Shown piece after piece: positions 7,806 to 50,397 of a stretch of DNA of 64,000 nt (the first letter of the stretch is position 1; each line of letters opens with the position of its first letter). This DNA comes from Staphylococcus phage vB_Sau_P68. The notes below the pieces were generated by a model. It did no database searches and was not told the DNA's origin. It saw only the letters and a list, made by a program, of their open reading frames with translations. A program made the position numbers and the translations under genes. The DNA lies in sequence record OL741057.1; one strand, given 5' to 3'.

Positions 7806-8852
7806 TTACTTCAATTCTACTTGTATTTCTCCTGCTCTAATAATTCCTTGTGGTGGTACTATAATGTTTTCATCTAAGTTATCAAATGCTACATCATAAA
7901 TTAATACATCATCAATATTCATTATTGCCTGTATAAGGTCTGTAATAATTAAGTCATCGGATGTTTTTAAATTATTTAAGTAACTTCTAATTACGCCTTC
8001 AATATGTCTACGTAATGTATCACCAATTCTAGATTTATTAGATATTGTTACTGTAGCAGAAACATTAACTTCTTCTTTTTCTACTCCTGTAACATCTAAC
8101 ATTATACCACTAGGTCTATAGTCTTGTAAAGCATTAGTTACATCTTCTTTTAAAGTATCTGATAAGTTACCGTTTCTATCGTGGGCGTATACAGTGATAT
8201 GACCTATTTCTTCATAAACGTAAACACCTTCAACGTCAGGTATTTGTAGAGCACCATATCGTACTGATTTATTAGTTGCTCTTCCTCTAGATTCTACGAA
8301 AGAATGGAATCTACGTTTAAAATCTTCTTGGCTTTCTTCTTTAGTACCTGTATTAAAAGATAAATCGTTATTAACACTTCTAATTAAACTAGAGCCTGAT
8401 GCTATTGTATTAATTGTTCCCTCAGGTACATTCCCTGCAACCCCTGTTTCTTTACAATATACCTCTACTACAATCTCAGTGGAATCAGGTTCTGCATAAT
8501 AATCAACTAATGTTTCAAACTGTTGCGGGTACTCTTGACGTGTTGAGGTAAAAGTTGTTCCTGCAGGTATATACATCCGCATATCTAAGGGTTGATAAAA
8601 TTGAATGGTTACATCACCATACGCTCTTTTAGATTGTCTCTTTTGAAAATCAAAAGCCTCAATAATACCTTCTTGAATACCCCAATTAATATTCTCTTTT
8701 GTTAGTATATAAAATTGCTCTATCTCTAGTGATACAGCTTCTAATAATGAACGAGAAGCTGACCCTGGTGTAAAATCTGTTATCTTACTTGTACCTGCCA
8801 TTGTCTTATCTATTAACTTCGATAGTATATTGGTTAATTTTCTAGTTTTCAT
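7806..8852 (-). CDS. baseplate J-like protein (gp6-like), 348 aa
   Basis: Size and position as the Kayvirus baseplate morphogenetic protein. Lies downstream of a LysM/gp25-like baseplate protein. Confidence 0.6.
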   Translation of the reverse strand: MKTRKLTNILSKLIDKTMAGTSKITDFTPGSASRSLLEAVSLEIEQFYILTKENINWGIQEGIIEAFDFQKRQSKRAYGDVTIQFYQPLDMRMYIPAGTTFTSTRQEYPQQFETLVDYYAEPDSTEIVVEVYCKETGVAGNVPEGTINTIASGSSLIRSVNNDLSFNTGTKEESQEDFKRRFHSFVESRGRATNKSVRYGALQIPDVEGVYVYEEIGHITVYAHDRNGNLSDTLKEDVTNALQDYRPSGIMLDVTGVEKEEVNVSATVTISNKSRIGDTLRRHIEGVIRSYLNNLKTSDDLIITDLIQAIMNIDDVLIYDVAFDNLDENIIVPPQGIIRAGEIQVELK

Positions 8853-8866
8853 AATTTAATCCTTTC

Positions 8867-9571
8867 CTATTCAAATAAAGCAAAAATGCCTTCTTCATCT
8901 TGCCCTAAAACAAATTCTATAGACTCCTCAACAGATTTTATTTCTACTGAGAATTGACCTGAATAAATGTTTCCTTGTATCTTCCAATCAATTAAGTTAG
9001 CAGATTTTACTCTATTATCTGATGTTAAGGTTCTTAAGACTTCCATCTCAATTAATGTTGCTTGCTCCGGTATGTTAAGACCAAATAAATTATGCAAGTC
9101 AGAACCATAATTAGGGTGTAACATTAAAGAACCTCTAGGAGTTAATAATCTTGCTTGTAACTGCTGTTTCATATTGTCTATACCTTTTACAGTATCTAAA
9201 TCTCCGTTACCATCAGTATTAAATGCTAATATGTTATCACTAGTACCGTGTTCATTAAAATACTTTTCATCAGATGTAATATTCAAGTCTCTCCCTAAGG
9301 CTAGTTCAACTAATACGTCTTTATCTCTAGAATTAATTTCCTTTGCTGTTACATCTGTTAAATCAGATTCTATAGGTATAATAAGTGTATCACCTGTAGA
9401 AGCTAACCTTTCAGGGTCTTTCATTTTCTCTTCATTAGTTTCTACTAGATATGGATACTTTAAGTTGTTATGTTCTACTAAATCTATCCAGTAACTTACA
9501 TCCCCATAATATCTTTGTGCTATTGCTTGCATAGTCTCTTCATGCTGAACTACATGTTTCTTAAATCTCAT
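8867..9571 (-). CDS. baseplate protein with N-terminal LysM-like motif (234 aa)
   Basis: N-terminus HVVQHEETMQAIAQRYYGDVSYWIDLVEHNNL fits the LysM pattern. Start overlaps the stop of the upstream gene. Confidence 0.6.
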   Translation of the reverse strand: MRFKKHVVQHEETMQAIAQRYYGDVSYWIDLVEHNNLKYPYLVETNEEKMKDPERLASTGDTLIIPIESDLTDVTAKEINSRDKDVLVELALGRDLNITSDEKYFNEHGTSDNILAFNTDGNGDLDTVKGIDNMKQQLQARLLTPRGSLMLHPNYGSDLHNLFGLNIPEQATLIEMEVLRTLTSDNRVKSANLIDWKIQGNIYSGQFSVEIKSVEESIEFVLGQDEEGIFALFE

Positions 9572-10095
9572 TATACATTAGCCTCCTTTTTAATTAGAGG
9601 TAGTTGTAATTCTATTGCACTAAAACATAAGTCTAAATCTCTTAAATCTAGAACAACACTATTGTAGTCATCATAGTTACCTAAATAATCTGCTACATAA
9701 TTCAAGTTTTCTCGTGTTATTTTAACATCATCTTCAGTTAAATATTTCAAAGAACTTGGGTTTTCTACAAAGCAATTAACAATAGCATATGCTTCCAATA
9801 CAATAGATTGTAAAATCATATACATTCTAGGTGCTTGGACTTTTAACAATGTATCATTTGCTTTATGGATAATAGTGTTATTATTAAATTCCCTTTCTAA
9901 TACAGGTATATCATCTGTCTTTATACTTGTCAATACTGTTTTTGCTAATTCACTTAATTGTAGCTGTGGAGTATAAAATCTAGATACAAATGATACCTCT
10001 TCATCAAGTAAATTCATCTGAGAAGAAGTTAAATCTGTATCTAAAGCATTTAAAAATCTAAGTAAACCTTGCGGTTGTGCTATAAAATTATTCAT
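9571..10095 (-). CDS. baseplate wedge-like protein (174 aa)
   Basis: ORF translationally coupled (ATGA overlap) within the baseplate block. Confidence 0.5.
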   Translation of the reverse strand: MNNFIAQPQGLLRFLNALDTDLTSSQMNLLDEEVSFVSRFYTPQLQLSELAKTVLTSIKTDDIPVLEREFNNNTIIHKANDTLLKVQAPRMYMILQSIVLEAYAIVNCFVENPSSLKYLTEDDVKITRENLNYVADYLGNYDDYNSVVLDLRDLDLCFSAIELQLPLIKKEANV

Positions 10096-14792: not shown

Positions 14793-17222
14793 TTATTTTT
14801 TATCATAAATGAATTGAGCTTCTTTACCTATCTGTGAACTCATATCTATTGTTCTAGTTCCATAACCATTAGCTGTAGCCCAATTATGCTCAGATATGAA
14901 TATTTTCTTACCTCCGTCTAAAACTTTCTCAACGAAGGCAACGTGACCATAAGCATTAGAGCCTCCTTTATCTCCTCGTTGCCAAATAACACAGGCACCT
15001 TGTTTAGGTGTCCTACCTACTCCATAACCTGCTCCTTTAGCCCCACCAATCCAGTCGGCGGCATCCCCCCATAGCGGTACCGGTATACCTAATTGACCTC
15101 TTCTATTATAAGCATACCAAGTACATTGATATTTATAATGTCTATTACCAGGTTGAACAAAGTTAGGGTCATGTTTAGGTAACTTACCATTATATTTTTT
15201 AAGTGAATCTAGTGAACCTCCATCTTGGGCTCCTCCACTATCAGAACCTCCTGTATCTCCACTAGTTTTTTTCTCTGATACTCCTTTTTCTTTAAGCTCT
15301 TTGGATGTATCTTCACCCATAAGCCCACCCATAAAGTCAGATGATTGGTTCCATAAACCTGCAAATCTGTGAGGACTACCTTTACCATCTTCTAAGATAG
15401 CATCTTTTAAACCTCTAGTTACTCCTACAGTTGTATAGTAACCTTGTTTGTAATCAAACTTATGTTCAACAGATTCTATATAGAATTCCCAAGTATCTCC
15501 TCGTTGCTTATCTTCAATAAATAGTCTTTTTCCTAAATCATATTTAGGGTCACCTAGAACAATAATGTCTCCTGCGTAGAAGTTAGGGTTACCATGATAC
15601 CAATTAAATAACATCCTAGAAAACATTGCTAGAGGGTCATCACTTGCATCTGAACCTGTGTCTGTAGCTATATTACTAACACCTTCAATAGCTTTTAGGT
15701 ATTTATCAAAAGCGACATCATTAGGTGGCTCTCCTTTATACTCAATATAGGAATCTAATAATACTTCTGCGTGTTTTTTATTACCAAATCTATATTTAGT
15801 AATTAGTTCTTTTTTTGCCTCTGCTTTAGCTTTTTTTCTTTTTTTAGCATTGTTGAAGTGTTCTTGTGTTTTAAACTTCTCTTTTAGTATACTCTTTAAT
15901 TTGTCTTTTGTCAACTTCGGTCTGTTATCTGATGTTAATTCATCATCTACTTTATTACCTGTTATCTTCTCGTATTCTTTTTCTGTTACTTTTCCTTCTT
16001 TGACGAACTTCTCTATAATTTTTTTAGCTTGAGCTTTTTTTAAGTTTTTATACTTTGAAGATAACTTACTTGTATATTTATCTATACCTTTTGAAATATT
16101 GTCTCTTCCATAGTTACTTAAATCTTTCATAATTTTAGAATAAGTTCCTCGTTCAGTACCATTATCATCTCCTGCAGAATCAGAATCTTCAGTAGCTGAA
16201 CCTGTTTTAGTACTTAGATAAAGGTTCTCTACTTCAAATTTAGTATACCCATATCTATCAGTCAATTCAGGATGAAATTGTGGTTTAGAAAATACATCAC
16301 CATTAAGTTCTTTTAACATACCTGCAGGTGTAGCTGTAAATATAGAATATGTCTCTACATCACTTTTACCTACATCCTCCTCAATGAAGTCTTCGGTAGG
16401 TACTTTAATCATATCCAAAGCTCTCCACTCAGTAGGATTAAAAGGTGTTTTTCTTAATACAAGTTGTGCTTTACCTGGTGTTTTTTCAGAGTTTTTGAAG
16501 AACAATTCATTAAAAGGTCTAGCTGTAACCATATCCATTAACTGTTTTAACGAACCATCAAAATTAGTAAAAGCGGATATTTCAGTTAGATTTTCAAACT
16601 CATCCCAACTACTTAAATCATCATAATCAAGATAGCTATCTATTGTATTATATGTTTTTTCAGTATAATTATATTTCATATATGGTATGAATCTACGTAT
16701 AATTCCTGTCATTACTTCATGAGCTGAGCTACCGGTAAATTTTACTTCATTATCTCCATCACCATCAATAAGCCAACCTACTTCAGGAAGTACAGCTTGA
16801 ACCTCTTGAATAACACCTAATCCAAATTTCATAAAAGGTTTTACAAAAGATTGACCTGTTATTCTAAACTGAGTTTGGTCATTACCATAACTACCTACTT
16901 TTGATACTTGGGAAACCATACCTACTTGGATGAGTCGTTCTTGTCTTCCTTCTTTATCATTAGGGTCATCATTAGGAGTAATAAATATTCTTATAATATC
17001 ATTAGCCATAACTAGCTTATCCCAATAAGTATCTCCTGCCATATTTATTTGGAAAACTGAACTATCATCTTCCATAGAGTTTTTAGTTTGAAATCCTAAT
17101 AGTTTAGCTCCAAACTCATCACCGTTATAATCCCGTGTATCTTCGAATCTTAATGTAAATGTATTATCATCTGTAACAATTTCTATTCTTACCTTAGGTC
17201 TTCTTATTCTACGCATATACAC
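14793..17222 (-). CDS. tail-associated muralytic enzyme (virion-associated peptidoglycan hydrolase) with C-terminal CHAP domain, 809 aa
   Basis: C-terminal QCTWYAYNRRGQLGIPVPLWGDAADW...GHVAFVEKV is a CHAP Cys/His pattern. Lies directly downstream of the TMP. Confidence 0.8.
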   Translation of the reverse strand: MYMRRIRRPKVRIEIVTDDNTFTLRFEDTRDYNGDEFGAKLLGFQTKNSMEDDSSVFQINMAGDTYWDKLVMANDIIRIFITPNDDPNDKEGRQERLIQVGMVSQVSKVGSYGNDQTQFRITGQSFVKPFMKFGLGVIQEVQAVLPEVGWLIDGDGDNEVKFTGSSAHEVMTGIIRRFIPYMKYNYTEKTYNTIDSYLDYDDLSSWDEFENLTEISAFTNFDGSLKQLMDMVTARPFNELFFKNSEKTPGKAQLVLRKTPFNPTEWRALDMIKVPTEDFIEEDVGKSDVETYSIFTATPAGMLKELNGDVFSKPQFHPELTDRYGYTKFEVENLYLSTKTGSATEDSDSAGDDNGTERGTYSKIMKDLSNYGRDNISKGIDKYTSKLSSKYKNLKKAQAKKIIEKFVKEGKVTEKEYEKITGNKVDDELTSDNRPKLTKDKLKSILKEKFKTQEHFNNAKKRKKAKAEAKKELITKYRFGNKKHAEVLLDSYIEYKGEPPNDVAFDKYLKAIEGVSNIATDTGSDASDDPLAMFSRMLFNWYHGNPNFYAGDIIVLGDPKYDLGKRLFIEDKQRGDTWEFYIESVEHKFDYKQGYYTTVGVTRGLKDAILEDGKGSPHRFAGLWNQSSDFMGGLMGEDTSKELKEKGVSEKKTSGDTGGSDSGGAQDGGSLDSLKKYNGKLPKHDPNFVQPGNRHYKYQCTWYAYNRRGQLGIPVPLWGDAADWIGGAKGAGYGVGRTPKQGACVIWQRGDKGGSNAYGHVAFVEKVLDGGKKIFISEHNWATANGYGTRTIDMSSQIGKEAQFIYDKK

Positions 17223-17296
17223 ATACTTCCTTTTATTTTTTTTATATGTATAAGAGTAGTATACTATGATACTACTCTTGTGTCAAGACAAAATTA

Positions 17297-20200
17297 CTAA
17301 TAACTTCTCTTATGTTCATTTGCAAAGATATCCATGTTGTTATCTAGTACTTCTCTAATTCTTCCACCTATAATGTCTCCAGTCTCTTCAGGATTATTTC
17401 CACCTTGAACGTTAACATTAACTGTTACTCTATTAGTTGTAGAAGCATTAGAAGCGTCATTAGAACCTCTATAATTAGAGCCGGAAGATGTTAATATAGG
17501 TTTACTCATAGCTTCTTGGTAGGTAGAGGATAATGCTTCTCCGCCTCCGCCTCCTCCGCCGGAACCACCTTTAACTCTTCCTCCTGTTGGACTCCAACCA
17601 CCATTAGGATTATAGTCTTGTTTCCAATTCTTGTTATTAAAGAATGCTAATAATTGGTCATACCCTGACGTGATATTACCATGACCTTTTACTTTATAAT
17701 TATCAAAAGTAGAAGGTACATATTGTAATAAACCTTTAGCAGGGGTACCATTTATATTATTAATATCTCCAATATTTCCTTGGGTAATTCCAGGGTCTCC
17801 GCCGGATTCATTGTGAATTAATGAAGCTATACCATCTACGTCTTTATCAGTGATATTAACACCCATAGCCTTGGCAGCCTTACGGATATCGTCTTTCCAT
17901 TTATCAGCAGGTTTTTTCTCATCTGAGTTACTACTTCCGAGGTCTCCCCCCTCTTCAGTGTTACCATCTAGACTAATACCTTTAGCACTCTCAATAATTT
18001 TCTGAGCTCTATCAAGTAAGTCACTATAGATTTTAAGGTTCTTAGTTTCAGATTGGTTATTCTTTTCTCTAAGTTGTTCTGCTGTCATTTTTTCTTTCTT
18101 CTTAGTATCTCCTTTAACACCTTTAACGCCTTTTTTCTTATCCTTGCTATCTTCTTCAGATGCTTCAGCGTCATTATCAAAGAGACCTGTTATACCGCTC
18201 CATGCTTTAGATATAGGTTTTCCTATTAGAGAATCTTGGAATTTATTCTTACCGTCCTTATCTCCATTAGACCATCCTAGGTTCCATCCTTCTTTAGTGT
18301 TAGCTTTTTTAGCCATGTCTCCGACTTTTTCACCAACAGCTCCTCCTCCGAAAGAACCTATAGCTCCACCTATTAAAGCTCCAGGTATTGCACCTACACC
18401 ACCAAATAAAGCTCCTATAGAAGCCCCTGCTGATGCACCTGCCATTCCTCCACCCATAGAGCCTACGCCTTTACCAATAGCTTTATCGTCTCCGGAAGCT
18501 AAAGCAGGTATTAATGATAATGCAGATGTAGCTACACCTAAAACTCCGGCTCCTTTTCCAAGACCGCCTGCAAGTTTTCCAAGTTTTCCTATCCCGCTAC
18601 CGCCTGCATTAGGTGATTGTGACAGAATACCGTTTTTACTTCCATCACCAAACTTATCAGCAAATTTACCATAGGCACCTTTACCTTTGTTTAATAAGCT
18701 ACCTGTACCATCTTTTATTTTTCCACCTAAACCTTTGAAGTTCTTAGGATTAAGAATACTTCCACTGAATTCTGATTTACCAGTGTCAAATAAGCCTTTA
18801 CCTGTTTTTTTACCTAGGTCTTTAGTTCTTCCTAAGTATTCTCCCATAGTAAAATCTCTGTTTTTAGGGTTAAGATGGTCAAATAATCCCTTACCAGTTT
18901 TCTTAGTACTATCCCAAGCACCTTTAAACTGCTCTTTTCCGGAACGAGAACCACCTTTTTTATTTTTACCACCTAAAAGTTTATCTCCGAATAGCATACC
19001 TCCTGCAAGGGCTTCTCCTCCAAAGCTCTTAGCTTTTTCAAACATACTACCTACTCTAGAACCTCCTGAAGTTCCTCCGCCATTAGGTGTTTTAGGATTA
19101 TTATTAGCGTATTTTTGTCTACCTGGACTTGTTCCTGGAGGTGGTGTTCCTCCTCCTGATGTACCACCATTTCTTTTCTTATCTACCCATTGTTTACCTT
19201 TACCTACTACACGACCCAAACCAAATTGTCCTGCAGATGCAAGTAAAGAAGCCGTGAATACCCCTACAGCAGTGGCTCCGGCATATACAATTGCCGGTAG
19301 ACCTGCAAAGGCACTATGAACATCTCTTACAGGTTGAGCTAAATCATAAATATCTTCTGCTTTATCATCAGTCTTAGCTTTGTTTTGGTCATTTTTACCT
19401 GCATCAGAACCTTCATAATCAGTTCTATTGTCTTCTCCTTCTTTTTTACCTTCTTTTTCCATTTTTTTAGCTTTTTTAGCTAATTCTTCTGCAGATAAAT
19501 CCCCTTTTTTATATTCATTAAATAAGTCATCTGTTTGGGATTGTGTTAAGTTAGCACCTAGACTATCAAAAGATTTTTTAGCAATAGCTTGTTGTTCTTT
19601 AGTGGTACCTCCCATTTGTTCAGCTTGACCTAGTATATCTGTTAAATTTTCAGGGTCTGATATACCTTTATCCATTCTAGCTTGTAAATCATGCATACCT
19701 TCTAGTCCTTGGTACTCAGTACCCCATCCCATAGATATACGAGCATAAGGATTATTCATACCATTTTTAATCCCTTGGTCTATACTCATCATTGCATTAG
19801 CACCCTGTTCACCCTGTAAACCTTTATTTCCAGTTCCTGCTAGGGTTGCTTGCATAGCTGATAAATTACTCATATCAGTACTAGACATTGTTCTACCTTG
19901 TCCTGATTGCTCAGCTATAGAACCTAATGCTTTAAGTTGCTCATCTTGACGACCAACCATACCTGATTGTTTAATACCGCCTAGGAATGCATCTTGCATT
20001 TCCTTCATATTACCACTAGATACTCCACCAGTGTGCATTAATTGATTCATAGATTCTTGGTACATTTCCTGGTCTTGTATTCCTAATGAACGTCCCCCGA
20101 TAGCAAGTTGTTTAGCTCCTGCCATTGTATCCTCATCACTTTTATGTCCTATTGATGATTCATATGAAGTAGCCATTTTCAACATGTCATTACTATTATA

Positions 20201-24021: not shown

Positions 24022-25317
24022 TTATTTATAATTTTGTATATAGTCAATATAACTTATACTTTTTAGTGTATCACTTTTTTCCTGTTCTGTAGCTTCTCTA
24101 ATATTGTACCCTTTAACAGTGTTTCTTTTACCCTTAGCACAATCTACAATGGATGCTACATCTGAACTTATTCTTTTTGTCATCATATGCAAAGGCAACT
24201 TAATATCTTCTGAACCTTTAGTTGCTACATATACTTTAATTCTTTTATCTGTTATTGTTTTAGCTACTTCTGAAAAGTCTTCATCTTCATATCTCCAAAG
24301 ATAACCACATGATTGCTTTTTACTTCCTGATACACACCCTCTAATACTTGATGAAGGTAATCCTAAATTACTAAAGTATTCTTGTGCTTCTTTTAAAGTG
24401 TCAAATCTAATTTCTTCTAGTGTCTTAATATTTAATCCTACTACAGGTTTAAATCTTTTCTTAACCCCTCTACGTTTCATTAAACCTTTAACATTACCAA
24501 CACTCATATTAAATTTATTTGCAGTTTCTTCTGAAGAGTGTTCTTTATAGAATTCTATAATCTCTTTTTCATTTTCTTTATATTTTGTAAACAGTTCTAT
24601 TCTCTCAGTATAATTTAAATTAATTTCTAAGAACGAACTTATAGTATTTAATATGTCCTTTTTGTCCTCATTAGGATAATAGATATATAGTAACTTTATG
24701 TTATTATCTTTACAGTATTTTTCTTTTAGTGAATCTAGCTCTTGTATCTTTTCTAAGGGCGTACTCCATGTTCCAGTAGCTTGTTTAATATGTTGTTGCC
24801 CCATATATTCAATAGCATATTTATTACCATTTAATTCTATATAAAAATCTAATCTTTGTGGTCTCTCTAATCCTGTGTAGATAGATTTTTCACATATAAA
24901 TTCGATACCATTTTCTTTAAGTATAGTCTGTATAATTCTCTCTCCGATACTTTTCATATGGTCTTGAGGACAATTATTATTAGTATTGTTCTCAAAACTA
25001 TTCCATATAACATCCCATTTATTCCCTTGCGGTGATAGTAGTAAACATCTCTTTGTTGATTGCAGATTTTCAGGGTAGTTTATAATACTATACCCTCTAC
25101 TTTTAGCGTAAGAAGAAAAATATTTCTTTTTACCTTCTTCTGTAAGTTGTGTTAGTCTTATTTGTTTTAAGTTATTTAAGTTATTGTAGGACACGTAACA
25201 TTCACAACCTTTAAATTTACCTTCCAAAACAACACCTAAATGTTTTGTATCTTTTGCTCTACCTCTATATTCTACGATTTTTATATTTTTTTCTTTTGCT
25301 AATTTTTCAATTTCCAT
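24022..25317 (-). CDS. free-standing homing-endonuclease-like protein (431 aa): N-terminal PD-(D/E)XK (DUF559/Vsr-like) nuclease core plus C-terminal NUMOD-like DNA-binding motifs
   Basis: Motif RLDFYIELNGNKYAIEYMGQQH matches RFDFCLFKENDIILIEYDGEHH in the ORF at 52354-53298. C-terminus has SCGYLWRY and KGYNIRE, which are NUMOD-type motifs. Own promoter TTGACA-17-TATCAT and RBS AAGAGGTG lie upstream. Confidence 0.7.
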   Translation of the reverse strand: MEIEKLAKEKNIKIVEYRGRAKDTKHLGVVLEGKFKGCECYVSYNNLNNLKQIRLTQLTEEGKKKYFSSYAKSRGYSIINYPENLQSTKRCLLLSPQGNKWDVIWNSFENNTNNNCPQDHMKSIGERIIQTILKENGIEFICEKSIYTGLERPQRLDFYIELNGNKYAIEYMGQQHIKQATGTWSTPLEKIQELDSLKEKYCKDNNIKLLYIYYPNEDKKDILNTISSFLEINLNYTERIELFTKYKENEKEIIEFYKEHSSEETANKFNMSVGNVKGLMKRRGVKKRFKPVVGLNIKTLEEIRFDTLKEAQEYFSNLGLPSSSIRGCVSGSKKQSCGYLWRYEDEDFSEVAKTITDKRIKVYVATKGSEDIKLPLHMMTKRISSDVASIVDCAKGKRNTVKGYNIREATEQEKSDTLKSISYIDYIQNYK

Positions 25318-25382
25318 ATTAAAACACCTCTTCTATTAAAGTATATACTAATGATACTATATCATTAGTCTTTTGTCAATAG

Positions 25383-25412
25383 AAAAGACCTAACTTTTAT
25401 TGTTAGGTCTAT
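25383..25412 (-). terminator. rho-independent terminator ending the sheath-tube transcription unit
   Basis: Minus-strand hairpin GACCUAAC-AAUAAAAG-UUAGGUC followed by UUUUCUAUUG. Confidence 0.5.
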
Positions 25413-25449
25413 ATTCTATAATAAATACGAACTTATGTTCTGGCTTTAT

Positions 25450-25840
25450 CTGATGCGGTCAAGTACGAAAACGATTTATTTATTTACAAACGCTACTTTG
25501 TAAACCTGTGTTATTTCACATGCACTAGCTTTCACTACGTGACTAGACTATTTGTTATCCCTAATTAGTAGGGCAAGGATTTTTCTTCTCCCAATAGCTT
25601 GGAGCTTTACTCTCATCTTATAATGAGATAGTCGTTGAACGTTCCTCTTATGATTTACTATCACTTAGAGTATTCGATGCTATACACCCATTGTACTTCT
25701 CCTTAGGATTTAACCTTAGAGTATCTCAATCATTTTTTCTACTTTCGTAACCTTCTAGTTTATTGTTTCCAATTCCTATGTGGTTGATTGAGCTTTAGAA
25801 GTTTCATAGCAGTTAACCCTTAATACTCACAGATTACTCT
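25450..25840 (-). other. candidate second group I intron of the tail tube gene (ORF-less, ~391 nt); alternatively a degenerate ribozyme remnant
   Basis: Minus-strand core elements R (GUUCAACGACUA, complement of 25629-25640) and S (AAAUAGUCU, complement of 25545-25553). Long stretch closely similar to the lysK intron core (CUAAGUGAUAGnAAAUCAUAAG...GUUCAACGACUA). Candidate P1 pairs exon GCUCAU with intron GUGAGU just after the 5' splice site. In-frame stop lies immediately after the putative 5' splice site, as in lysK. Confidence 0.45.
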
Positions 25841-25910
25841 ATGAGCAGAGTGTAAAATTCTCAATTTCCTCTGTCACTATTTCATTGGTCTGCCACGTCT
25901 CGTTATAGTT
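25839..25910 (-). CDS. tail tube protein exon 2 (NYNETWQTNEIVTEEIENFTLCS, ending in TAG unless intron 2 is spliced)
   Basis: In-frame continuation of exon 1 after removal of the 333-nt intron. The junction SAN|NYNETWQ matches the continuous tail tube sequence recalled for K-like phages. Confidence 0.7.
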   Translation of the reverse strand, partial: NYNETWQTNEIVTEEIENFTLCS

Positions 25911-26243
25911 CACTTATACCCTATCTCTCGATATATTTAAAGGGGTTAGACTGTCCCATGTCCCTTATTTATAAGGTGACTACCTATTACAGTCGTTGAA
26001 GCTTCCCACTCTCGTAGGCTTGCCTGCGGATTTCCTATTAATTGAGTACTTAGGACATTAATAATGTGTCGCTAGTTATTAATGCTTTTATCTCACCGTA
26101 TACTATCCAATTAATTTTTTCTGATTTCTCAACATTCACGCTTACTTTTTCAAGTTACGTTGTAGTTTAATTGGCTTTAAGGTGTTCCCGCAATTTCAGG
26201 TATTATTCGACTATACATTACTGTATAGAAGCAACAATTATTT
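25911..26243 (-). mobile_element. group I intron (ORF-less, 333 nt) interrupting the tail tube gene
   Basis: Canonical core on the minus strand: P AAAUUGCGGGAA (complement of 26185-26195), Q AAAUCCGCAGGCAAG (26019-26033), R UUCAACGACUGU (25990-26001), S GGGACAGUCUAACC (25944-25957). Exon 1 ends in U that pairs with intron GUUG. Intron ends in G. Its length is a multiple of 3, and an in-frame stop lies 1 codon into the intron. Confidence 0.8.
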
Positions 26244-26582
26244 ATTGGCACTACATCCGTGGTAACTAATGATAACTTGTTTAGTTAAATTATCTACTAC
26301 TAAGATATCAATGATATCTTTCTTAAGAATTTCTTCACCAAGTGAAGCATATCCTAAATCTGCAAAGTTTTCTTTTTTCATACGTAAACGTTCTACTGTA
26401 ATTGTACCTTCATAACGTAAGTATACGTGTTCTTGAGGCATGATAGAACCGATTTCGTATACACCAGTTGTACCGTATTCACGAGTACCTGATGCTGATT
26501 GTGCTCTTCCTACCGGTTTACCTTTAATCATAAGTAAGACGGTATTACCAGTATGGACGGTTTGTTTAGCTTCTGATGCCAT
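26244..26582 (-). CDS. tail tube protein exon 1 (113 codons)
   Basis: MASEAKQTVHTGNTVLLMIKGKPVGRAQSASG... lies immediately downstream of the tail sheath gene. The annotated ORF ends HGCSANK* where the intron begins. Confidence 0.8.
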
Positions 26583-26654: not shown

Positions 26655-28418
26655 TTAGGCTTGTAATGTTTGTTGCTTGTAAACCAAGCTAACAGAGATT
26701 TTCTTGAAGCTTCTGATTGGGTAAACTGTCATTGAAATTCTTGCTTTGTTACCTTCAACAATAACTTGTACGTCTTCAGCAGGGAAGTCTTGAATTTCAT
26801 TATCACGTTTCTTACGACCCAAGTAAGATTGGATAAAGTCTTTAATGATTGAAGCACTTGTATTGATAGTACGAGTACCAATGAATTGGTCTTCAAGTTG
26901 AACTTTAAGCTCACTTACTAAGAAGTCATTAGCTTCCCCAACAGCCATCTCAGCCTTAACTGGGTCTGACTTATCGTTGAATGTAGTTACGTCATCAACG
27001 ATTCTGAAGAATGTATTAGTACGGTTACGAACAAACTCGATACTAATAATACCATTTTCATTTAATTCATCTAAATCAATTGACTCGTATACTTGGTCTA
27101 ACGCACTTACACGTAATGGTTTGAAAGTGATTGATTCACCGATTTCTAAACCACTTGCAAGACCACCTAAAGCTACAGCTACCATATAAGCAGGTACGTG
27201 GTTTTTACGTCCATCATCCATAACAAAAGTACCTGAGTTAGCTACTAATGATACACGAGGATTAGATAATGATGCTTGTCTACCGAACAACTGTTCTTTA
27301 GATTCATTAAATCCTCCGCCAACAATAGCTCTCATTGGTTCTCCTGCGTCAGAACGTTCTTTAACGAAAGCAGATACCTCTGCATGAACTGATTGTTTAG
27401 ATGATAATGGGACAATGTAGTATCCGCCTTCATGTGCAAATTTCTCTAATTTATCTGCCCATGTAGCAGGTGGTTCACCGTTAGTACCGCCTTTTAACTT
27501 AGTTAATTCGAAAGGCTCAATAGTTCTAATAGGTGAAGTAGCTGTTACTGTAGCTGATTCTTCTCCTGCTTCAACCTCTACATTACTTGGTACTTCTCCT
27601 TCTGCATTAAGTTGCTCGAAAGATACAATACCATTATAAGCTGTTTGTTTTTCTAAGTCACCGAAGACTGCTTTAACGTATACAGCTTTATCTTTAATAT
27701 TTACATCTGATGCTTTATCTAATTTACTAGATTCTAAGTTTTTATCTCCGAAAGGTGATAACTTAGCTTCAAAATCAGGTAATTGATTAATGTCTGTAAT
27801 AATAGCGTTAGTATAGTCATAAGCACCGCTAGTTAAGTCATATGATTTAACTTCTTGGTCTCCGACTTTTAATACCAAACGACTTGCTTTTTGAGTTTCT
27901 TCATCATGTTCTACAGAGAAAGTTGCGTTAGCTTCTTCTCCTTTGTACTTGATTGTGAAGATATTACCGATATTATCATAAACTTCATTGAAACGGTCAT
28001 CTTGGAAAATTACTCTTAAACGTAATGAATCACTTAATGTATTCTTTTCCAATCCTACTTGAATGTTATTAGCAACATTACCGTAGATTTGAGATGTTAT
28101 TTTTAATCCGCCAGCTTCTACTGAAGCAGGTTTAGCATCCTCAGTACGCATAGCTAAAATCTTACCTGCTGTATAGTTAGGGTTAGAACCCCATGCTAAT
28201 TCAATTGCATCAAGTAATTCTCCTGAACGGAATAAACGTTTAGCTTGTGCATAGTTACGTAATTCATAAACTGTATTTGGTTCTCCGCCTTCTGCTGAAC
28301 CGATTAAGCAAAATACTTTTTCACTTGAACCTGCTGAGCCACCGATACCTGAAGTATCTACTTCAATAGATGCATGAGGGCGGGTAATAGGTCTTCTTGG
28401 GAATGGTTCTACTGCCAT
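26655..28418 (-). CDS. tail sheath protein (587 aa)
   Basis: 587 aa, as in the K-like tail sheath. Position is upstream of the tail tube gene. Confidence 0.9.
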   Translation of the reverse strand: MAVEPFPRRPITRPHASIEVDTSGIGGSAGSSEKVFCLIGSAEGGEPNTVYELRNYAQAKRLFRSGELLDAIELAWGSNPNYTAGKILAMRTEDAKPASVEAGGLKITSQIYGNVANNIQVGLEKNTLSDSLRLRVIFQDDRFNEVYDNIGNIFTIKYKGEEANATFSVEHDEETQKASRLVLKVGDQEVKSYDLTSGAYDYTNAIITDINQLPDFEAKLSPFGDKNLESSKLDKASDVNIKDKAVYVKAVFGDLEKQTAYNGIVSFEQLNAEGEVPSNVEVEAGEESATVTATSPIRTIEPFELTKLKGGTNGEPPATWADKLEKFAHEGGYYIVPLSSKQSVHAEVSAFVKERSDAGEPMRAIVGGGFNESKEQLFGRQASLSNPRVSLVANSGTFVMDDGRKNHVPAYMVAVALGGLASGLEIGESITFKPLRVSALDQVYESIDLDELNENGIISIEFVRNRTNTFFRIVDDVTTFNDKSDPVKAEMAVGEANDFLVSELKVQLEDQFIGTRTINTSASIIKDFIQSYLGRKKRDNEIQDFPAEDVQVIVEGNKARISMTVYPIRSFKKISVSLVYKQQTLQA

Positions 28419-47062: not shown

Positions 47063-47136
47063 GGCTCATTGGTGTAACTGGTTAACACACTGCCCTGTCA
47101 CGGCAGAGAGTACGAGTTCGAGTCTCGTATGAGTCG
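47063..47136 (+). tRNA. tRNA-Asp (anticodon GUC)
   Basis: Cloverleaf with acceptor GGCTCAT/ATGAGTC (one G-U pair), D-stem GTGT/ACAC, anticodon stem CTGCC/GGCAG with loop CUGUCAC, T-arm ACGAG-TTCGAGT-CTCGT. No encoded CCA. Confidence 0.85.
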
Positions 47137-47446: not shown

Positions 47447-47950
47447 ATGACTAATGAAGCTAAACAACCTAAAGTTGTTGGAGGAATAAACCTTAGTACA
47501 CGAACTAAGAGTAAAACATTTTGGGTAGCAATTATATCGGCAGTAGCAGTATTTGCTAATCAAATTACAGGTGCTTTTGGTTTAGATTATTCAGCTCAAA
47601 TTGAGCAAGGTGTCAATATCATAGGTTCTATACTAACATTATTAGCAGGTTTAGGTATTATTGTTGATAATAATACTAAAGGTCTTAAAGACAGTGATAT
47701 TGTTCAAACAGACTATACAAAACCTCGTGATAGTAAAGACCCTAATGAATTTGTTCAATGGCAAGCAAATGCAAACACAGCTAGTACTTTTGAATTAGAC
47801 AACTACGAAAACAATGCAGAGCCTGATACAGATGATAGTGATGAAGTACCTGCTATTGAAGATGAAATTGATGGCGGTTCAGCACCTTCTCAAGACGAAG
47901 AAGATACCGAAGAACACGGTAAAGTATTTGCGGAGGAGGAAGTTAAGTAA
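47447..47950 (+). CDS. holin (167 aa, two TM segments, acidic C-terminal tail)
   Basis: Two hydrophobic segments and a charged tail. Stop overlaps the endolysin ATG (TAATG). Size matches the phage K holin. Confidence 0.75.
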
Positions 47951-48584
47951 TGGCTAAGACGCAAGCAGAAATAAATAAACGTTTAGACGCATATGCAAAA
48001 GGAACAGTAGATAGCCCTTATAGAGTTAAGAAAGCAACAAGTTATGACCCTTCATTTGGTGTAATGGAGGCAGGAGCAATTGATGTAGATAAATATTATC
48101 ACGCTCAGTGTCAAGACCTTATTACAGACTATGTATTATGGTTAACAGATAATAAAGTTAGAACTTGGGGTAATGCTAAAGACCAAATCAAACAAAATTA
48201 TGGTACTGGATTTAAAATACACCAAAATAAACCTTCTACAGTACCTAAAAAAGGTTGGATTGCAGTATTTACTTCAGGTAGCTATACACAGTGGGGTCAC
48301 ATAGGTATTGTATATGATGGAGGTAATACTTCAACATTTACTATTTTAGAGCAAAACTGGAACGGTTACGCTAATAAAAAACCTACAAAACGTGTAGATA
48401 ACTATTACGGATTAACTCATTTCATTGAAATACCTGTAAAAGCAGGAACTACTGTTAAAAAAGAAACAGCTAAGAAAAGTGCAAGTAAAACACCTGCACC
48501 TAAAAAGAAAGCAACATTAAAAGTTTCTAAGAATCATATTAACTATACAATGGATAAACGAGGTAAAAAACCTGAAGGAATGGT
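47950..48584 (+). CDS. lysK: endolysin LysK-type, exon 1 (CHAP domain)
   Basis: [42 protein letters not shown]... is near-identical to the LysK CHAP domain. Exon ends ...KPEGMV at GU before a group I intron. Confidence 0.85.
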
Positions 48585-49541
48585 GTAAAAAATAATCTAT
48601 AAAATAACTTGTAATTCTATTAGTTCTATGGTATAATACTTATATAATGATGTAGGAGGTATTATACATGGAAGAAATTTGGAAAGACATTCAAGGATAT
48701 GAAGGTAAATATAAAGTTAGTAACCTAGGAAATGTTAAATCAATAAAACGAACTGTTAAACACGCAGGAAGTAATACTAGAACTTTTCCTGAAACTTTAT
48801 TGAAACCTAATAAAGTAGCATTTGATTATCTTCAAGTAACTCTATATAAAGAAGGTAAAAGAAAATGTAGGTACGTTCATAATTTAGTAATGGAAGCTTT
48901 TGTAGGAGAAAAGGAAAAAGGTTTTGAGACAAATCATAAAAATGAAATAAAAAGTGATAATAGGCTTGAAAACTTAGAATACATTACTGCAAAAGAAAAT
49001 AATAATTATGGGACACGAATACAAAGAATGTCTGAAAAAAATACTAATGGGAAAAGAAGTAAGAAAATTAAAGGTACTCATTTAAAAACTAAAGTTGAAA
49101 TTATTTTACCTTCTATTGAAGAAGCAAAAAGACAAGGATATGGTAATCATATATCTGAAGTTTGTAATGGTAAAAGAAATTCATGTAAAGGTTATAAATG
49201 GGAATTTATAGATTAAGCACTGCATATATCGTGAGGTATATGTACTAAAAACATAAATTGCTTTGAAGAACCTTAGAGCCTTGATACCACAATAAAGCTG
49301 AAAAGACTTTATGAGGGTTTAACAAGTTCAAGGATTGGTTTGTTTAGCATCACTACTCCTAAGTGATAGAAAAATCATAAGGAGAATGTTCAACGACTAG
49401 AGGATTGCCTCCTCGTAGGGTTCAAGTGAACTCGAAAGAAGAACTATCTCACAGAGATAGAGAGAAATAGTCTGCTCACGTCCTGTAATGGGAGTGCTAG
49501 GTAATACCTAGAGCTAGATTAACGAACTAGTGAAACATAAG
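48585..49541 (+). mobile_element. group I intron in the endolysin gene carrying an HNH homing endonuclease ORF (I-KsaI-like arrangement)
   Basis: Exon junction GGU|G...G|AUA restores [18 protein letters not shown]..., as in continuous LysK. Intron core has R GUUCAACGACUA and S AAAUAGUC. Stop codon lies immediately after the 5' splice site. Omega G at 49541. Confidence 0.8.
48668..49216 (+). CDS. intron-encoded HNH homing endonuclease (182 aa)
   Basis: N-terminal GYEGKYKVSNLGNVKS (NUMOD4-like). HNH region VHNLVMEAF...NHKNEIKSDNRLENLEY. C-terminal GYKWEF. Confidence 0.8.
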   Translation: MEEIWKDIQGYEGKYKVSNLGNVKSIKRTVKHAGSNTRTFPETLLKPNKVAFDYLQVTLYKEGKRKCRYVHNLVMEAFVGEKEKGFETNHKNEIKSDNRLENLEYITAKENNNYGTRIQRMSEKNTNGKRSKKIKGTHLKTKVEIILPSIEEAKRQGYGNHISEVCNGKRNSCKGYKWEFID

Positions 49542-50397
49542 GATACACAACGATGCGGGTCGTTCTTCAGGACAACAATACGAGAATTCATTAGCTAAAG
49601 CAGGTTATGCTAGATATGCTAATGGTATTGCTCATTACTACGGTTCTGAGGGTTATGTATGGGAAGCAATAGATGCTAAGAATCAAATTGCTTGGCATAC
49701 AGGAGATGGGACAGGAGCAAACTCAGGTAACTTTAGATTTGCAGGTATTGAAGTCTGTCAATCAATGAGTGCTAGTGATGCTCAATTCCTTAAAAATGAA
49801 CAAGCAGTATTCCAATTTACAGCAGAAAAATTTAAAGAGTGGGGTCTTACTCCTAACCGTAAAACTGTAAGATTGCATATGGAATTCGTTCCTACTGCAT
49901 GTCCTCACCGTTCTATGGTTCTTCATACAGGATTTAATCCAGTAACACAAGGAAGACCATCACAAGCAATAATGAATAAACTTAAAGATTATTTCATTAA
50001 ACAAATTAAAAACTACATGAGTAACGGAACTTCAAGTTCTACTGTAGTTAAAAAAGGTAAAACAAGTAGTGCAAGTACACCGGCAACTAGACCAGTTACA
50101 GGTTCTTGGAAAAAGAACCAATACGGAACTTGGTATAAACCGGAAAACGCAACATTTGTTAATGGTAACCAACCTATAGTAACTAGAATAGGTTCTCCAT
50201 TCTTAAATGCTCCAGTAGGAGGTAACTTACCGGCAGGAGCTACAATTGTATATGACGAAGTTTGTATCCAAGCAGGTCATATTTGGATTGGTTATAACGC
50301 TTATAATGGTAACAGAGTATATTGCCCTGTTAGAACTTGTCAAGGTGTTCCACCTTCACATGTACCTGGAGTTGCCTGGGGGACATTCAAGAGTTAA
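49542..50397 (+). CDS. lysK: endolysin LysK-type, exon 2 (amidase-2 and C-terminal SH3b cell-wall-binding domains)
   Basis: [56 protein letters not shown]... continues to the SH3b-like C-terminus. In frame with exon 1 after splicing. Confidence 0.85.

What the first reader, a model, noticed from the sequence alone, without database searches (positions are those of the whole stretch)
25383..25910. Second group I ribozyme core right after the tail tube 'stop'
What the sequence shows:
- The ~390 nt after exon 2 contain a second R/S pair on the minus strand: GUUCAACGACUA (complement of 25629-25640) and AAAUAGUCU.
- A ~50-nt stretch is almost identical to the core of the lysK intron in this same genome (CUAAGUGAUAGnAAAUCAUAAG…GUUCAACGACUA).
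- Exon 2's last codons GCUCAU can pair with the intron GUGAGU to form a P1 helix.
- The TAG stop sits immediately after that U, the same stop-after-splice-site arrangement seen in lysK.

Inference:
- Splicing at the complement of 25841 to an omega-G at the complement of 25450 would add ...CS-YKART* from exon 3 (25433-25449), giving a 141-aa product.
- That product would end just before the terminator hairpin at 25383-25412.
- The element is either a second active intron, a Twort-like serial-intron gene, or a decaying remnant.
Basis: partly seen in the sequence, partly recalled or inferred. Interest (0 to 1): 0.65.

Follow-up and report, generated by a model that had tools for sequence, protein, structure and literature searches.

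The report
Second intron in phage tail-tube gene

Summary
There is a second, ORF-less group I intron on the minus strand, but it runs 25859..25472 (388 nt), not 25840..25450. Exon 3 is 25471..25433 and encodes FSYLTASDKART*. Joining 26244|25910 and 25860|25471 gives a 142-aa protein identical to the intronless tail tube of phage CF7 and 141/142 identical to the solved phi812 tail tube. In 13 homologues, 97.6% of cells across 75 core base pairs are paired, and 49 pairs show compensatory changes. Rfam's group I model scores only 15.9 bits. The same intron sits at this site in at least 9 Kayvirus-like, several Sepunavirus and about 15 Enterococcus phage records. It was not annotated as an intron in any of the seven records I opened. 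Relatives 70-81% identical occur in portal and tail-lysin/tape-measure genes. Introns in this gene are already published (Twort orf142, phage 812). The unusual point is that the 5' exon ends in G (GAG|AAU…UCG|UUU). A U-ending exon joined after the intron's final G would shift the frame by +1, or is simply unavailable, in the relatives with an intronless comparator. Splicing itself was not tested.

The parts
26244..26582 (-). Tail-tube exon 1 (339 nt, M1...N113), ends ...GCC AAU
   Evidence: ORF listing. Alignment to the phage K and CF7 genes.
25911..26243 (-). Intron 1 (333 nt, ORF-less group I intron). It has a canonical junction: exon ends in U, P1 is CAAU/GUUG, last base is G.
   Evidence: Rfam Intron_gpI 32 bits, E=5e-6, below the gathering score. 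Exon join restores ...SANNYNE.... The same intron is in IMG/VR locus L045.
25860..25910 (-). Exon 2 (51 nt, NYNETWQTNEIVTEEIE), ends in GAG
   Evidence: Identical in protein to CF7 and K.
25472..25859 (-). Intron 2, the finding: a 388-nt ORF-less group I intron that begins AAUUUUACA and ends AAAUCG
   Evidence: Boundaries from intronless alleles. 100% identical to phage WV, 86% to Sepunavirus BE08, 71% to Enterococcus phages at the same site. Covariation.
25848..25862 (-). P1: exon GAG (25862..25860) pairs with the internal guide CUC (25850..25848); the loop is AAUUUUACA. The splice site follows G25860.
   Evidence: Sequence. Enterococcus homologues have CAG/CUG, a compensatory G-C to C-G change at the third pair. 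Stab23, 184DA, Golestan and BE08 keep GAG/CUC.
25824..25847 (-).
   Evidence: Helix 1: 6 of 7 pairs with changes on both sides. Coordinates.
25575..25821 (-). P3 (25821..25815 with 25581..25575). It encloses the P4-P6 domain and its P5 extensions: P4 25811..25808/25681..25678, P5a 25792..25785/25732..25725, two GAAA-tetraloop hairpins, and P6/P6a 25676..25640.
   Evidence: P5a has 8 of 8 pairs with compensatory changes.
25546..25633 (-). P7 (GACUA 25633..25629 with UAGUC 25550..25546, the guanosine-binding helix). It encloses P7.1 (25628..25611), P7.2 (25604..25588), the 3' strand of P3, and P8 (25572..25559).
   Evidence: P7 is invariant in 13 of 13 sequences. P7.1 has 4 of 4, P7.2 3 of 4 and P8 1 of 3 pairs with compensatory changes.
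25473..25536 (-). P9 (25536..25527), a P9.1 hairpin proposed by eye, and P9.2 (25501..25486, loop GUAGCG), followed by the tail UAAAUAAAUC
   Evidence: for P9 and P9.2. P9.1 was read by eye and was not among the counted pairs.
25472..25472 (-). Terminal G of the intron (omega-G)
   Evidence: Last base before exon 3. It is also G in Golestan (UGG|UUU), BE08 and the Enterococcus homologues.
25433..25471 (-). Exon 3 (39 nt): FSYLTASDKART plus stop
   Evidence: Identical peptide in K, CF7 and the phi812 structure. Five intron-carrying variants differ only by synonymous changes.
25386..25410 (-). Intrinsic terminator of the tail-tube gene
   Evidence: It aligns with the terminator annotated in phage K.
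25351..25379 (-). Promoter-like site TTGACA-17-TATCAT upstream of the nuclease gene
   Evidence: 11 of 12 consensus positions. This is a consensus match only.
24022..25317 (-). Free-standing 431-aa nuclease gene, a candidate homing endonuclease that mobilises the intron cassette
   Evidence: PHROG 7140 'intron encoded nuclease' E=9e-126; HNH and homing-endonuclease PHROGs; a weak I-HmuI NUMOD-like hit below Pfam's cutoff. Absent from intronless CF7 and K. The same arrangement is in phage 812.

Best explanation
Window 25859..25472 (minus strand) is an intact, ORF-less group I intron with the P7.1/P7.2 helices typical of subgroup IA phage introns. It is the second of two introns in the tail-tube gene of a Kayvirus-like staphylococcal phage.

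The late transcript reads exon 1, intron 1, exon 2 (51 nt), intron 2 and exon 3 (39 nt), then stops at the terminator at 25410..25386. The folded intron pairs its guide CUC with the exon end GAG to form P1. Splicing removes the intron after its last G (25472) and joins G25860 to U25471. Together with removal of intron 1, this restores a 429-nt reading frame for the normal 142-aa tail-tube protein.

The two introns, the heavily recoded exon ends and the downstream 431-aa nuclease gene look like one mobile cassette, spread by homing with co-conversion of the flanks.

Shown here: the sequence, the conserved and covarying fold, the DNA-level insertion boundaries, and the identity of the joined exons to intronless proteins.

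Inferred: that splicing occurs, that it is autocatalytic, and that cleavage follows a G rather than the usual U.
For: 1. Fold. 75 pairs in 17 helices; 97.6% of cells paired, against 33-46% for slid controls; 49 pairs with double changes. RNAalifold independently finds 52 of 73 pairs with compensatory changes. P7 is invariant.

2. Boundaries. Phage K reads GAAATCGAG^TTTAGTTAC. The window reads GAAATTGAG[AAT...TCG]TTTTCGTAC.

3. Product. The joined exons give 142 aa identical to the contiguous CF7 / PG-2021_19 gene and 141/142 identical to PDB 8q01.

4. Selection. The joined gene differs from CF7-type genes at 34-39 nucleotides. All are synonymous, and most lie in nt 279-426, around the two introns. 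Exon 3 in five intron-carrying phages varies only synonymously (TCG/AGC/TCA, TAC/TAT, TTG/TTA and others). Enterococcus exon 3 likewise shows 5 synonymous and 0 non-synonymous differences.

5. P1 adapts to the exon: Staphylococcus GAG/CUC versus Enterococcus CAG/CUG.

6. Spread. The same intron is at the same codon boundary in Kayvirus-like, Sepunavirus and Enterococcus Kochikohdavirus phages.

7. Precedent. Twort orf142 is the tail-tube gene and has three self-splicing introns (PMC11878797, citing Landthaler & Shub 1999). Phage 812, A3R, 676Z, Fi200W and P4W have two non-coding introns in this gene plus an adjacent nuclease gene (PMC6445280). The 812 coding sequence is annotated as a three-piece join.
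Against: - No RNA or protein data for this phage were available, so splicing is inferred.
- The exon ends in G25860, not U, and the position that normally forms the U-G wobble is an A opposite an A. That wobble is described as critical and highly conserved (PMC4227781). In the Anabaena intron, swapping the pair's two bases (T-G to G-T) abolished the reaction (PMC12355055).
- P1 is only 3 bp, and I found no convincing P10.
- Rfam RF00028 scores 15.9 bits (gathering score 50).
- None of the seven GenBank records I opened that carry this intron at this site annotates it. The four Kayvirus-like ones list a truncated 114- or 136-aa tail-tube ORF instead.
Confidence: 0.8

Rival explanations
1. One reading: the 5' splice site follows GCUCAU (25841), P1 is GCUCAU/GUGAGU, the terminal G is at 25450, exon 3 is 25449..25433, and the product is 141 aa ending ...FTLCSYKART.
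For: The six-base pairing exists, and a U precedes the proposed site.
Against: - That pairing is a hairpin conserved by covariation in homologous introns in portal, lysin and other genes, so it cannot involve tail-tube exon sequence (helix 1).
- All homologues end ...EFSYLTASDKART.
- The model would discard the FSYLTAS codons, which stay intact and change only synonymously.
- NFTLCS differs between carriers of the intron; BE08 reads NNNSFSKVIC.
Confidence: 0.02
2. Decaying remnant: the ribozyme no longer splices, and the phage uses a truncated 136-aa tail tube ending at the TAG inside the intron.
For: There is no U at the splice site, and P1 is only 3 bp. Four opened records of this intron type annotate only a truncated 114- or 136-aa ORF. 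Rfam scores it weakly.
Against: - Every core helix is intact in the window copy, and the intron is 95-100% conserved across at least 9 viable isolates.
- The guide sequence covaries with the exon between host genera.
- Exon 3 is kept open with only synonymous change in all lineages.
- The read-through tails are not conserved.
- The deposited phi812 tail-tube chain is the full 142 aa including FSYLTASDKART.
Confidence: 0.07
3. Splicing occurs but one base to the right on both sides. The 5' exon ends GAGA and the intron ends ...UCGU, giving ...EEIEISYL... This would keep the cut at the nucleotide that faces the first base of the guide, as in canonical introns.
For: In the Enterococcus, Romulus and SAC relatives this register puts a U at the exon end, and it yields the same mRNA because a U follows the terminal G.
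Against: - It requires the intron's last base to be U, or C in DH2 and PMBT8, instead of the G that occupies the guanosine site.
- It changes the Phe found at this position in every tail-tube homologue examined to Ile, and Ala to Val in DH2 and PMBT8. The G-ending model reproduces the intronless residue in all six testable cases.
Confidence: 0.06
4. Canonical splice site three bases downstream (GAGAAU|), which would add an Asn (...EEIENFSYL..., 143 aa).
For: It gives a U at the exon end, a final G and an open frame in the window and in BE08.
Against: - Stab23 has AAA, not AAU, at these three positions, so it has no U there.
- Nothing in the intron's 5' region could pair with GAGAAU.
- In Enterococcus the corresponding bases are UAA, a stop codon.
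- The 143-aa sequence is absent from a collection of about 15 billion proteins, while the 142-aa one is present.
Confidence: 0.02

Closest known systems
Phage Twort orf142 (tail-tube gene) introns I1-I3 (Landthaler & Shub 1999, as cited in PMC11878797)
   Same: Same gene and the same 3'-terminal region. Several short ORF-less group I introns are separated by mini-exons. A nuclease gene lies just downstream (Twort ORF018). The window's intron 1 shares its opening bases (AAAUAAUUGU...) and P2 region with Twort I2/I3.
   Different: Intron 2 belongs to a different sequence family. It is inserted 4 nt downstream of the Twort I2 site. All three Twort junctions are canonical (exon ends in U, intron ends in G); this one has G at the exon end.
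Phage 812 / A3R / 676Z / Fi200W / P4W tail-tube introns (Botka et al. 2019, PMC6445280; MH844528 annotated as a 3-piece join)
   Same: A Kayvirus tail-tube gene with two non-coding introns and an adjacent 'putative group I intron-encoded nuclease' gene. The second 812 intron lies one base from this site (GAGT^TT versus GAG^TTT).
   Different: Both 812 introns resemble Twort I2 and are unrelated in sequence to intron 2. Their sites differ from both window introns. The second 812 intron has a canonical junction (GAGU|...UUG|UUUC).
Introns reported in split genes of Silviavirus phages (Romulus, Remus, SA11, KSAP7/11), plus unannotated relatives in Sepunavirus and Sextaecvirus phages (PMC7497331, PMC7997843)
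   Same: Same ribozyme family: 70-81% identical over nearly the whole core, with the same P2-P9.2 architecture and covariation. The same unusual junction is inferred, with the exon ending in G and the intron beginning UAA.
   Different: They sit in portal, tail-lysin/tape-measure and other genes. Most carry a promoter plus an endonuclease ORF, or remnants of one, after P9.2. The tail-tube copy is ORF-less and begins with A instead of U.
Phage K lysK intron (present in this window at 48586..49542)
   Same: Shares a 60-nt P4'-P6-P7 core segment at 85% identity.
   Different: Otherwise not alignable. It is 957 nt long, and an open reading frame begins after its 5' end. Its junction can be read canonically (GGU|G...AAG|G).

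Membership tests
Group I intron (catalytic core) | Paired regions P3-P8 arranged as a P4-P6 domain and a P3/P7/P8 domain, with the P3-P7 pseudoknot | tested here: met
   All helices are found and covary: 75 pairs, 97.6% of cells paired, 49 pairs with double changes, slid controls 33-46%.
Group I intron (catalytic core) | Conserved P7 / guanosine-binding elements (R: GUUCAACGACUA, S: AAUAGUC) | tested here: met
   Present at 25640..25629 and 25553..25545. P7 is invariant in 13 of 13 homologues.
Group I intron (catalytic core) | Last intron nucleotide is G (omega-G) | tested here: met
   G25472 directly precedes exon 3. The position is G in all tail-tube variants.
Group I intron (catalytic core) | P1: an internal guide sequence pairs with the end of the 5' exon | tested here: met
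   GAG/CUC sits immediately 5' of P2. It is only 3 bp, but it changes to CAG/CUG in the Enterococcus homologues.
Group I intron (catalytic core) | 5' exon ends in U, forming a U-G wobble at the cleavage site (near-universal; 'critical and highly conserved', PMC4227781) | tested here: not met
   The exon ends in G25860, paired with C. The next position is A opposite A. No frame-preserving junction with a U-ending exon survives comparison with Stab23 and the intronless genes.
Group I intron (catalytic core) | Self-splicing with guanosine and Mg2+ | not testable with these tools
   Needs in vitro transcription and splicing, or RT-PCR.
Rfam RF00028 Intron_gpI | Score at or above the gathering threshold (50 bits) | tested here: not met
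   15.9 bits, E=0.37 for intron 2; 32 bits for intron 1. The model evidently scores these two phage introns poorly.
Subgroup IA phage introns | Extra helices P7.1 and P7.2 between P7 and the 3' strand of P3 | tested here: met
   P7.1 at 25628..25611 and P7.2 at 25604..25588, both with compensatory changes. Assignment to IA2 specifically was not tested.
Mobile intron / homing cassette | Patchy presence at one site among close relatives, an associated endonuclease gene, and co-converted exon flanks | tested here: met
   Presence or absence varies among Kayvirus-like phages. A nuclease ORF at 24022..25317 is absent from intronless genomes. Synonymous differences cluster around the introns. Endonuclease activity and target were not tested.

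The most novel reading that the evidence does not exclude
Intron 2 belongs to a family of group I introns in Herelleviridae and Sextaecvirus phages that do not use the U-G wobble at the 5' splice site.

In every member with an intronless comparator, the exon ends in a purine, and in five of the six cases it is a Watson-Crick-paired G. The cases are the tail tube of Staphylococcus and of Enterococcus phages, the DH2 portal, the Romulus tape-measure/lysin gene and a PMBT8 structural gene. The SAC portal ends in A. The nucleotide that pairs with the first G of the guide is the intron's first base: U in most members, A opposite A here.

If so, these natural ribozymes cut one position upstream of the canonical site.
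Probability: 0.55. Interest if true: 0.7.

Novelty: new member of a known kind. Interest (0 to 1): 0.5.

Why it matters
Practical consequence: the four Kayvirus-like records I opened that carry this intron list a truncated 114- or 136-aa tail-tube ORF, and none of the seven opened records, including a Sepunavirus and two Enterococcus phages, marks the intron. Rfam's model does not flag it either. Pipelines will therefore mis-annotate an essential structural gene and distort core-gene phylogenies. The Herelleviridae reclassification study noted anomalies in its tail-tube tree (PMC7409376).

Biological context: the last ~100 nt of this gene is a hotspot that has been invaded at eight or more different positions by at least two intron families. 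That makes it a good system for studying intron competition, exon skipping and homing by a neighbouring free-standing nuclease.

Mechanistic question: if the inferred G-ending 5' exon is confirmed by cDNA, this family would be a natural exception to one of the most conserved rules of group I catalysis. It would also be a ready test case for how the cleavage site in P1 is chosen.

Tried and rejected
- Rfam at gathering score on the whole window found only a tRNA. At E-value threshold on 1.4 kb it gave intron 1 at 32 bits and intron 2 at 15.9 bits. A whole-window E-value scan lost both.
- The guide candidate CUCAAU (25792..25787), which could pair with AUUGAG, was rejected. It is the P5a 5' strand, with 8 of 8 covarying pairs.
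- A splice after GAAAUU (dropping Glu, 141 aa) was rejected. The pairing AAAUU/AAUUU is not kept in Stab23 or BE08, and the CF7-identical product argues against it.
- A splice after GAGAAU was rejected because of Stab23.
- A later terminal G (25466) was rejected because the Phe-Ser codons are under selection.
- I first read the conserved UUAAAAYWUAUAAAU after the core of the lysin and exonuclease relatives as a mini-exon. It is intron sequence that leads into an endonuclease cassette, and the true 3' ends lie further downstream.
- The SAC portal copy has a confusing P1, with the splice point in a loop. I left it as only partly understood.
- I looked for an intronless allele carrying the window-type exon flanks. 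None was found in phage records or in IMG/VR.
- Landthaler & Shub 1999, Landthaler 2002 and Vandersteegen 2013 are not held in the library. Lavigne & Vandersteegen 2013 and Lobocka 2012 were not read.
- An early script used wrong exon coordinates. This was corrected.

Full report
**Context**

The window is from a Kayvirus-like staphylococcal myovirus (Herelleviridae). The region 25300-26700 matches 393 phage records, mostly Staphylococcus. On the minus strand the tail-sheath gene (28418..26655) is followed by a gene that starts at 26582. Its first 113 codons are 97% identical in DNA to the phage K tail-tube gene. The K protein ends ...GCSANNYNETWQTNEIVTEEIEFSYLTASDKART (142 aa). In the window this sequence is split into three pieces.

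**Checking the observation**

- GUUCAACGACUA at 25640..25629.
- AAAUAGUCU at 25553..25545.
- GCUCAU (25846..25841) and GUGAGU (25830..25825).
- TAG at 25840..25838.
- A hairpin at 25410..25386 followed by a T run, which a terminator scan also finds. It aligns with the terminator annotated after the K gene.

The similarity to the lysK intron is real: 51/60 identities between intron positions 174-231 and window 49341-49399, E=1e-10.

**Where the intron really is**

Exon 3 is TTTTCGTACTTGACCGCATCAGATAAAGCCAGAACATAA (25471..25433) and encodes FSYLTASDKART*, the exact C-terminus of K. Phage K reads GAAATCGAG^TTTAGTTAC. The window reads GAAATTGAG[AAT...388 nt...TCG]TTTTCGTAC. Intron 2 is therefore 25859..25472.

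Intron 1 is 26243..25911 (333 nt) and lies between GCCAAT and AACTAT.

Joining 26244|25910 and 25860|25471 gives a 429-nt frame. Its 142-aa product occurs, residue for residue, as the contiguous tail-tube gene of intronless phages CF7 (PP034388) and PG-2021_19 (MZ417322). It is 141/142 identical to the phi812 tail-tube chains in the PDB (8q01 and ten further entries).

At the DNA level the joined gene differs from the CF7-type genes at 34-39 positions. None changes an amino acid, and most lie in nt 279-426, around the two insertion sites. This pattern fits a co-converted or recoded flank under strong purifying selection. It shows that exons 2 and 3 are read in this frame.

**It is a real ribozyme fold**

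Rfam's group I model gives only 15.9 bits (E=0.37) for intron 2 and 32 bits for intron 1, and nothing at the gathering score. Comparative analysis is decisive instead. A sensitive DNA search finds the element in 163 phage records:
- At this same site in WV, OPT-SC01, PSU2, PSU6, St14.GH, Stab23, JDYN, Golestan-105-M and 184DA (95-100% identity).
- At this site in Sepunavirus BE-series phages (86-89%).
- At this site in about 15 Enterococcus Kochikohdavirus phages (about 71%).
- In other genes (portal, tail-lysin/tape-measure and others) of Silviavirus, Sepunavirus and Sextaecvirus phages (70-81%).

I aligned 13 copies. RNAalifold predicts P2, P3, P4, P5 with a long extension carrying two GAAA tetraloops, P6, P7.1, P7.2, P8, P9 and P9.2. 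Of its 73 pairs, 52 show compensatory changes.

I then added the P7 pseudoknot and counted the pairs. 97.6% of 970 cells are paired, against 33-46% when partners are slid by 1-3 columns. 49 of 75 pairs have double changes. None of 500 shuffles reaches the observed percentage paired, number of pairs changed on both sides, or covariation score.

It covaries (6 of 7 pairs) in introns that sit in unrelated genes, so it is P2.

**P1 and the splice site**

Directly 5' of P2 lies CUC (25850..25848), which pairs with the exon end GAG (25862..25860). In the Enterococcus copies the exon ends CAG and the guide reads CUG, a compensatory change.

The exon therefore ends in G, not U. I tested the ways of rescuing a U:
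- **GAGAAU| (adds Asn).** It fails because Stab23 has AAA there. No guide sequence fits it. Enterococcus has UAA at the equivalent place. The 143-aa product is absent from the protein collection.
- **GAAAUU| (drops Glu).** It has no conserved pairing.
- **Cutting one base later on both sides.** This needs a non-G last intron base and turns the Phe found in every homologue examined into Ile.

The Enterococcus case is instructive. The intronless EFLK1 gene encodes ...STQFTYLTSAKVK, 100% identical to the joined exons. The carriers read CAG[UAAG...CUG]UUCACA. A U-ending exon combined with the final G would add one base and shift the frame. Exon 3 differs between carriers only synonymously: 5 of 5 differences between 3e and ECP3, and mostly so in IMG/VR locus L047, where the last residue is also Arg instead of Lys.

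**The same offset across the family**

| Copy | Junction | Intronless comparator or check |
|---|---|---|
| DH2 portal | GAGG\|UAAC...ACGG\|CAGACC | window portal GAGGCTGACC |
| Romulus tape-measure/lysin | AAAGG\|UAAC...UAUGG\|UAUUAAUG | restores ...KKG-INDKSQ... |
| PMBT8 structural gene | AGAG\|UUUAAUGGCUCU...AUCG\|CAGAAUUC | restores R-A-E-F-F; PT1-4 has R-A-K-F-F |
| SAC portal | CAAA\|UUUGCC...GAAG\|UCCCC | window portal |

Including the base that faces the guide's first G would shift the frame by +1 in each of the four. Except in SAC, the exon's final G pairs with the guide's C, and the U that faces the guide's first G is the first intron base.

The same method gives ordinary junctions (U-ending exon, G-ending intron) for the other intron family in this gene: window intron 1, Twort I1-I3, and IMG/VR loci L024, L036 and L045. 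The lysK intron can also be read canonically. So the method is not biased towards odd junctions.

The U-G wobble is described as critical and highly conserved (PMC4227781). Swapping its two bases abolished the reaction in the Anabaena intron (PMC12355055). This is the one truly unusual aspect, and it rests on inference from DNA and protein comparison, not on RNA data.

**Mobility context**

Downstream of the terminator there is a promoter-like TTGACA-17-TATCAT (25379..25351) and a 431-aa ORF (25317..24022). The ORF matches PHROG 7140 'intron encoded nuclease' (E=9e-126) and HNH/homing-endonuclease families. It is missing from intronless K and CF7. A counterpart lies next to the intron-bearing tail-tube genes of Twort and 812. 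I infer that it drives homing of the whole cassette. This was not tested.

**Comparison with what is known**

Introns in this gene are published:
- Twort orf142 is the tail-tube gene. It has three self-splicing introns and shows exon skipping (PMC11878797, citing Landthaler & Shub 1999).
- Phage 812, A3R, 676Z, Fi200W and P4W have two non-coding introns plus an adjacent nuclease gene (PMC6445280). MH844528 annotates a three-piece join.

Those introns resemble Twort I2 and sit at other positions. The intron family of the finding is known from split genes of Romulus and Remus (PMC7497331, PMC7997843). Its presence in the tail-tube gene is not annotated in any of the seven records I opened: Stab23, PSU2, 184DA, Golestan, BE08, 3e and ECP3. 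I therefore rate it a new member of a known kind, with a possibly new variant property (the G-ending 5' exon).

**Verdict**

- Best explanation (confidence about 0.8): a functional ORF-less group I intron whose removal joins 25860 to 25471 and restores the standard 142-aa tail tube.
- Interest is moderate. The kind of element is expected here. The junction rule deserves an experiment.

Noticed in passing
window 25911-26243 (minus strand): Intron 1 of the tail-tube gene. It is 333 nt and ORF-less, shares its opening bases with Twort orf142 I2/I3, and has a canonical junction (GCCAAU|AAAUAAUU...GUUG; ...AAGUG|AACUAU). Rfam gives 32 bits, below the gathering score. With the 51-nt exon 2 between two introns, an exon-1-to-exon-3 join would stay in frame, so Twort-style exon skipping is possible.
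   Followed up: partly
window 24022-25317 (minus strand), promoter-like site 25351-25379: A free-standing 431-aa nuclease gene (PHROG 7140 'intron encoded nuclease', E=9e-126) lies directly after the tail-tube terminator. It is absent from intronless K and CF7, and a counterpart is present in 812 and Twort. It is the likely homing enzyme for the two ORF-less introns.
   Followed up: partly
loci L106 (DH2 portal), L009 (Romulus), L107+L011 (PMBT8), L008 (SAC portal), L016/L017/L047 (Enterococcus tail tube): In every relative of intron 2 with an intronless comparator, the 5' exon ends one base upstream of the nucleotide that faces the guide's first G. It ends in G in all but SAC, where it ends in A. 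The intron starts with U (UAA in most copies). Including the next base would shift the frame by +1.
   Followed up: partly
loci L024-L045, L006 (Twort 16272-17560), L019/L105 (phage 812): The last ~100 nt of the Twortvirinae tail-tube gene is an intron hotspot. I saw at least eight distinct insertion points from at least two intron families, with up to three introns per gene, for example after GGTT, AAT, TAT, ACAT, TCGT, GCAT, GAG, GAGT, CCTT and GCAT.
   Followed up: partly
L105 / L019 (phage 812, MH844528 58129-59118): The first 812 tail-tube intron has a good P1 (GAGACAU/GUGUCUC), but a U-ending exon joined after the final G (ACAU|...ACAG|GCAGACC) is one base short of the K frame. By my arithmetic on the published 426-nt length, the join seems to drop the Trp of NETWQ. 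The true junction looks unresolved.
   Followed up: partly
window 25433-26303 versus L101-L104 (CF7-type genes): About 30 of the 34-39 differences between the joined gene and the intronless CF7-type genes fall in the last 150 nt, and all are synonymous, including Ser TCG/AGT codon-family switches. This suggests a co-conversion tract from a divergent donor, or recoding that protects against the endonuclease.
   Followed up: partly
window 48586-49542 (plus strand): The lysK (endolysin) gene is split by a 957-nt intron. Exon 1 is 47950-48585 and exon 2 is 49543-50391. An open reading frame begins after the intron's 5' end, and the ribozyme core lies at about 49200-49542. The junction can be read canonically as GGU|G...AAG|G. 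The LysK query sequence came from my own memory, though it aligned at 97%.
   Followed up: partly
window 47063-47136 (plus strand): A tRNA gene (Rfam 64.6 bits) lies upstream of lysK. The anticodon was not determined.
   Followed up: no
window 49950-50212 (plus strand): A weak sub-threshold Rfam hit to Staphylococcus sRNA S808 (31 bits against a gathering score of 76) lies inside lysK exon 2. It is probably chance.
   Followed up: no
L011 (PMBT8 8438-9878) and L107: One Sextaecvirus structural gene carries two introns of this family only about 80 nt apart. The first contains an endonuclease ORF, and a further group I-like core follows downstream.
   Followed up: partly
window 25713-25797 versus 26095-26179 (minus strand): Introns 1 and 2 share a weak 85-nt similarity (68%) in their P5 extension regions, although they belong to different families elsewhere.
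   Followed up: no
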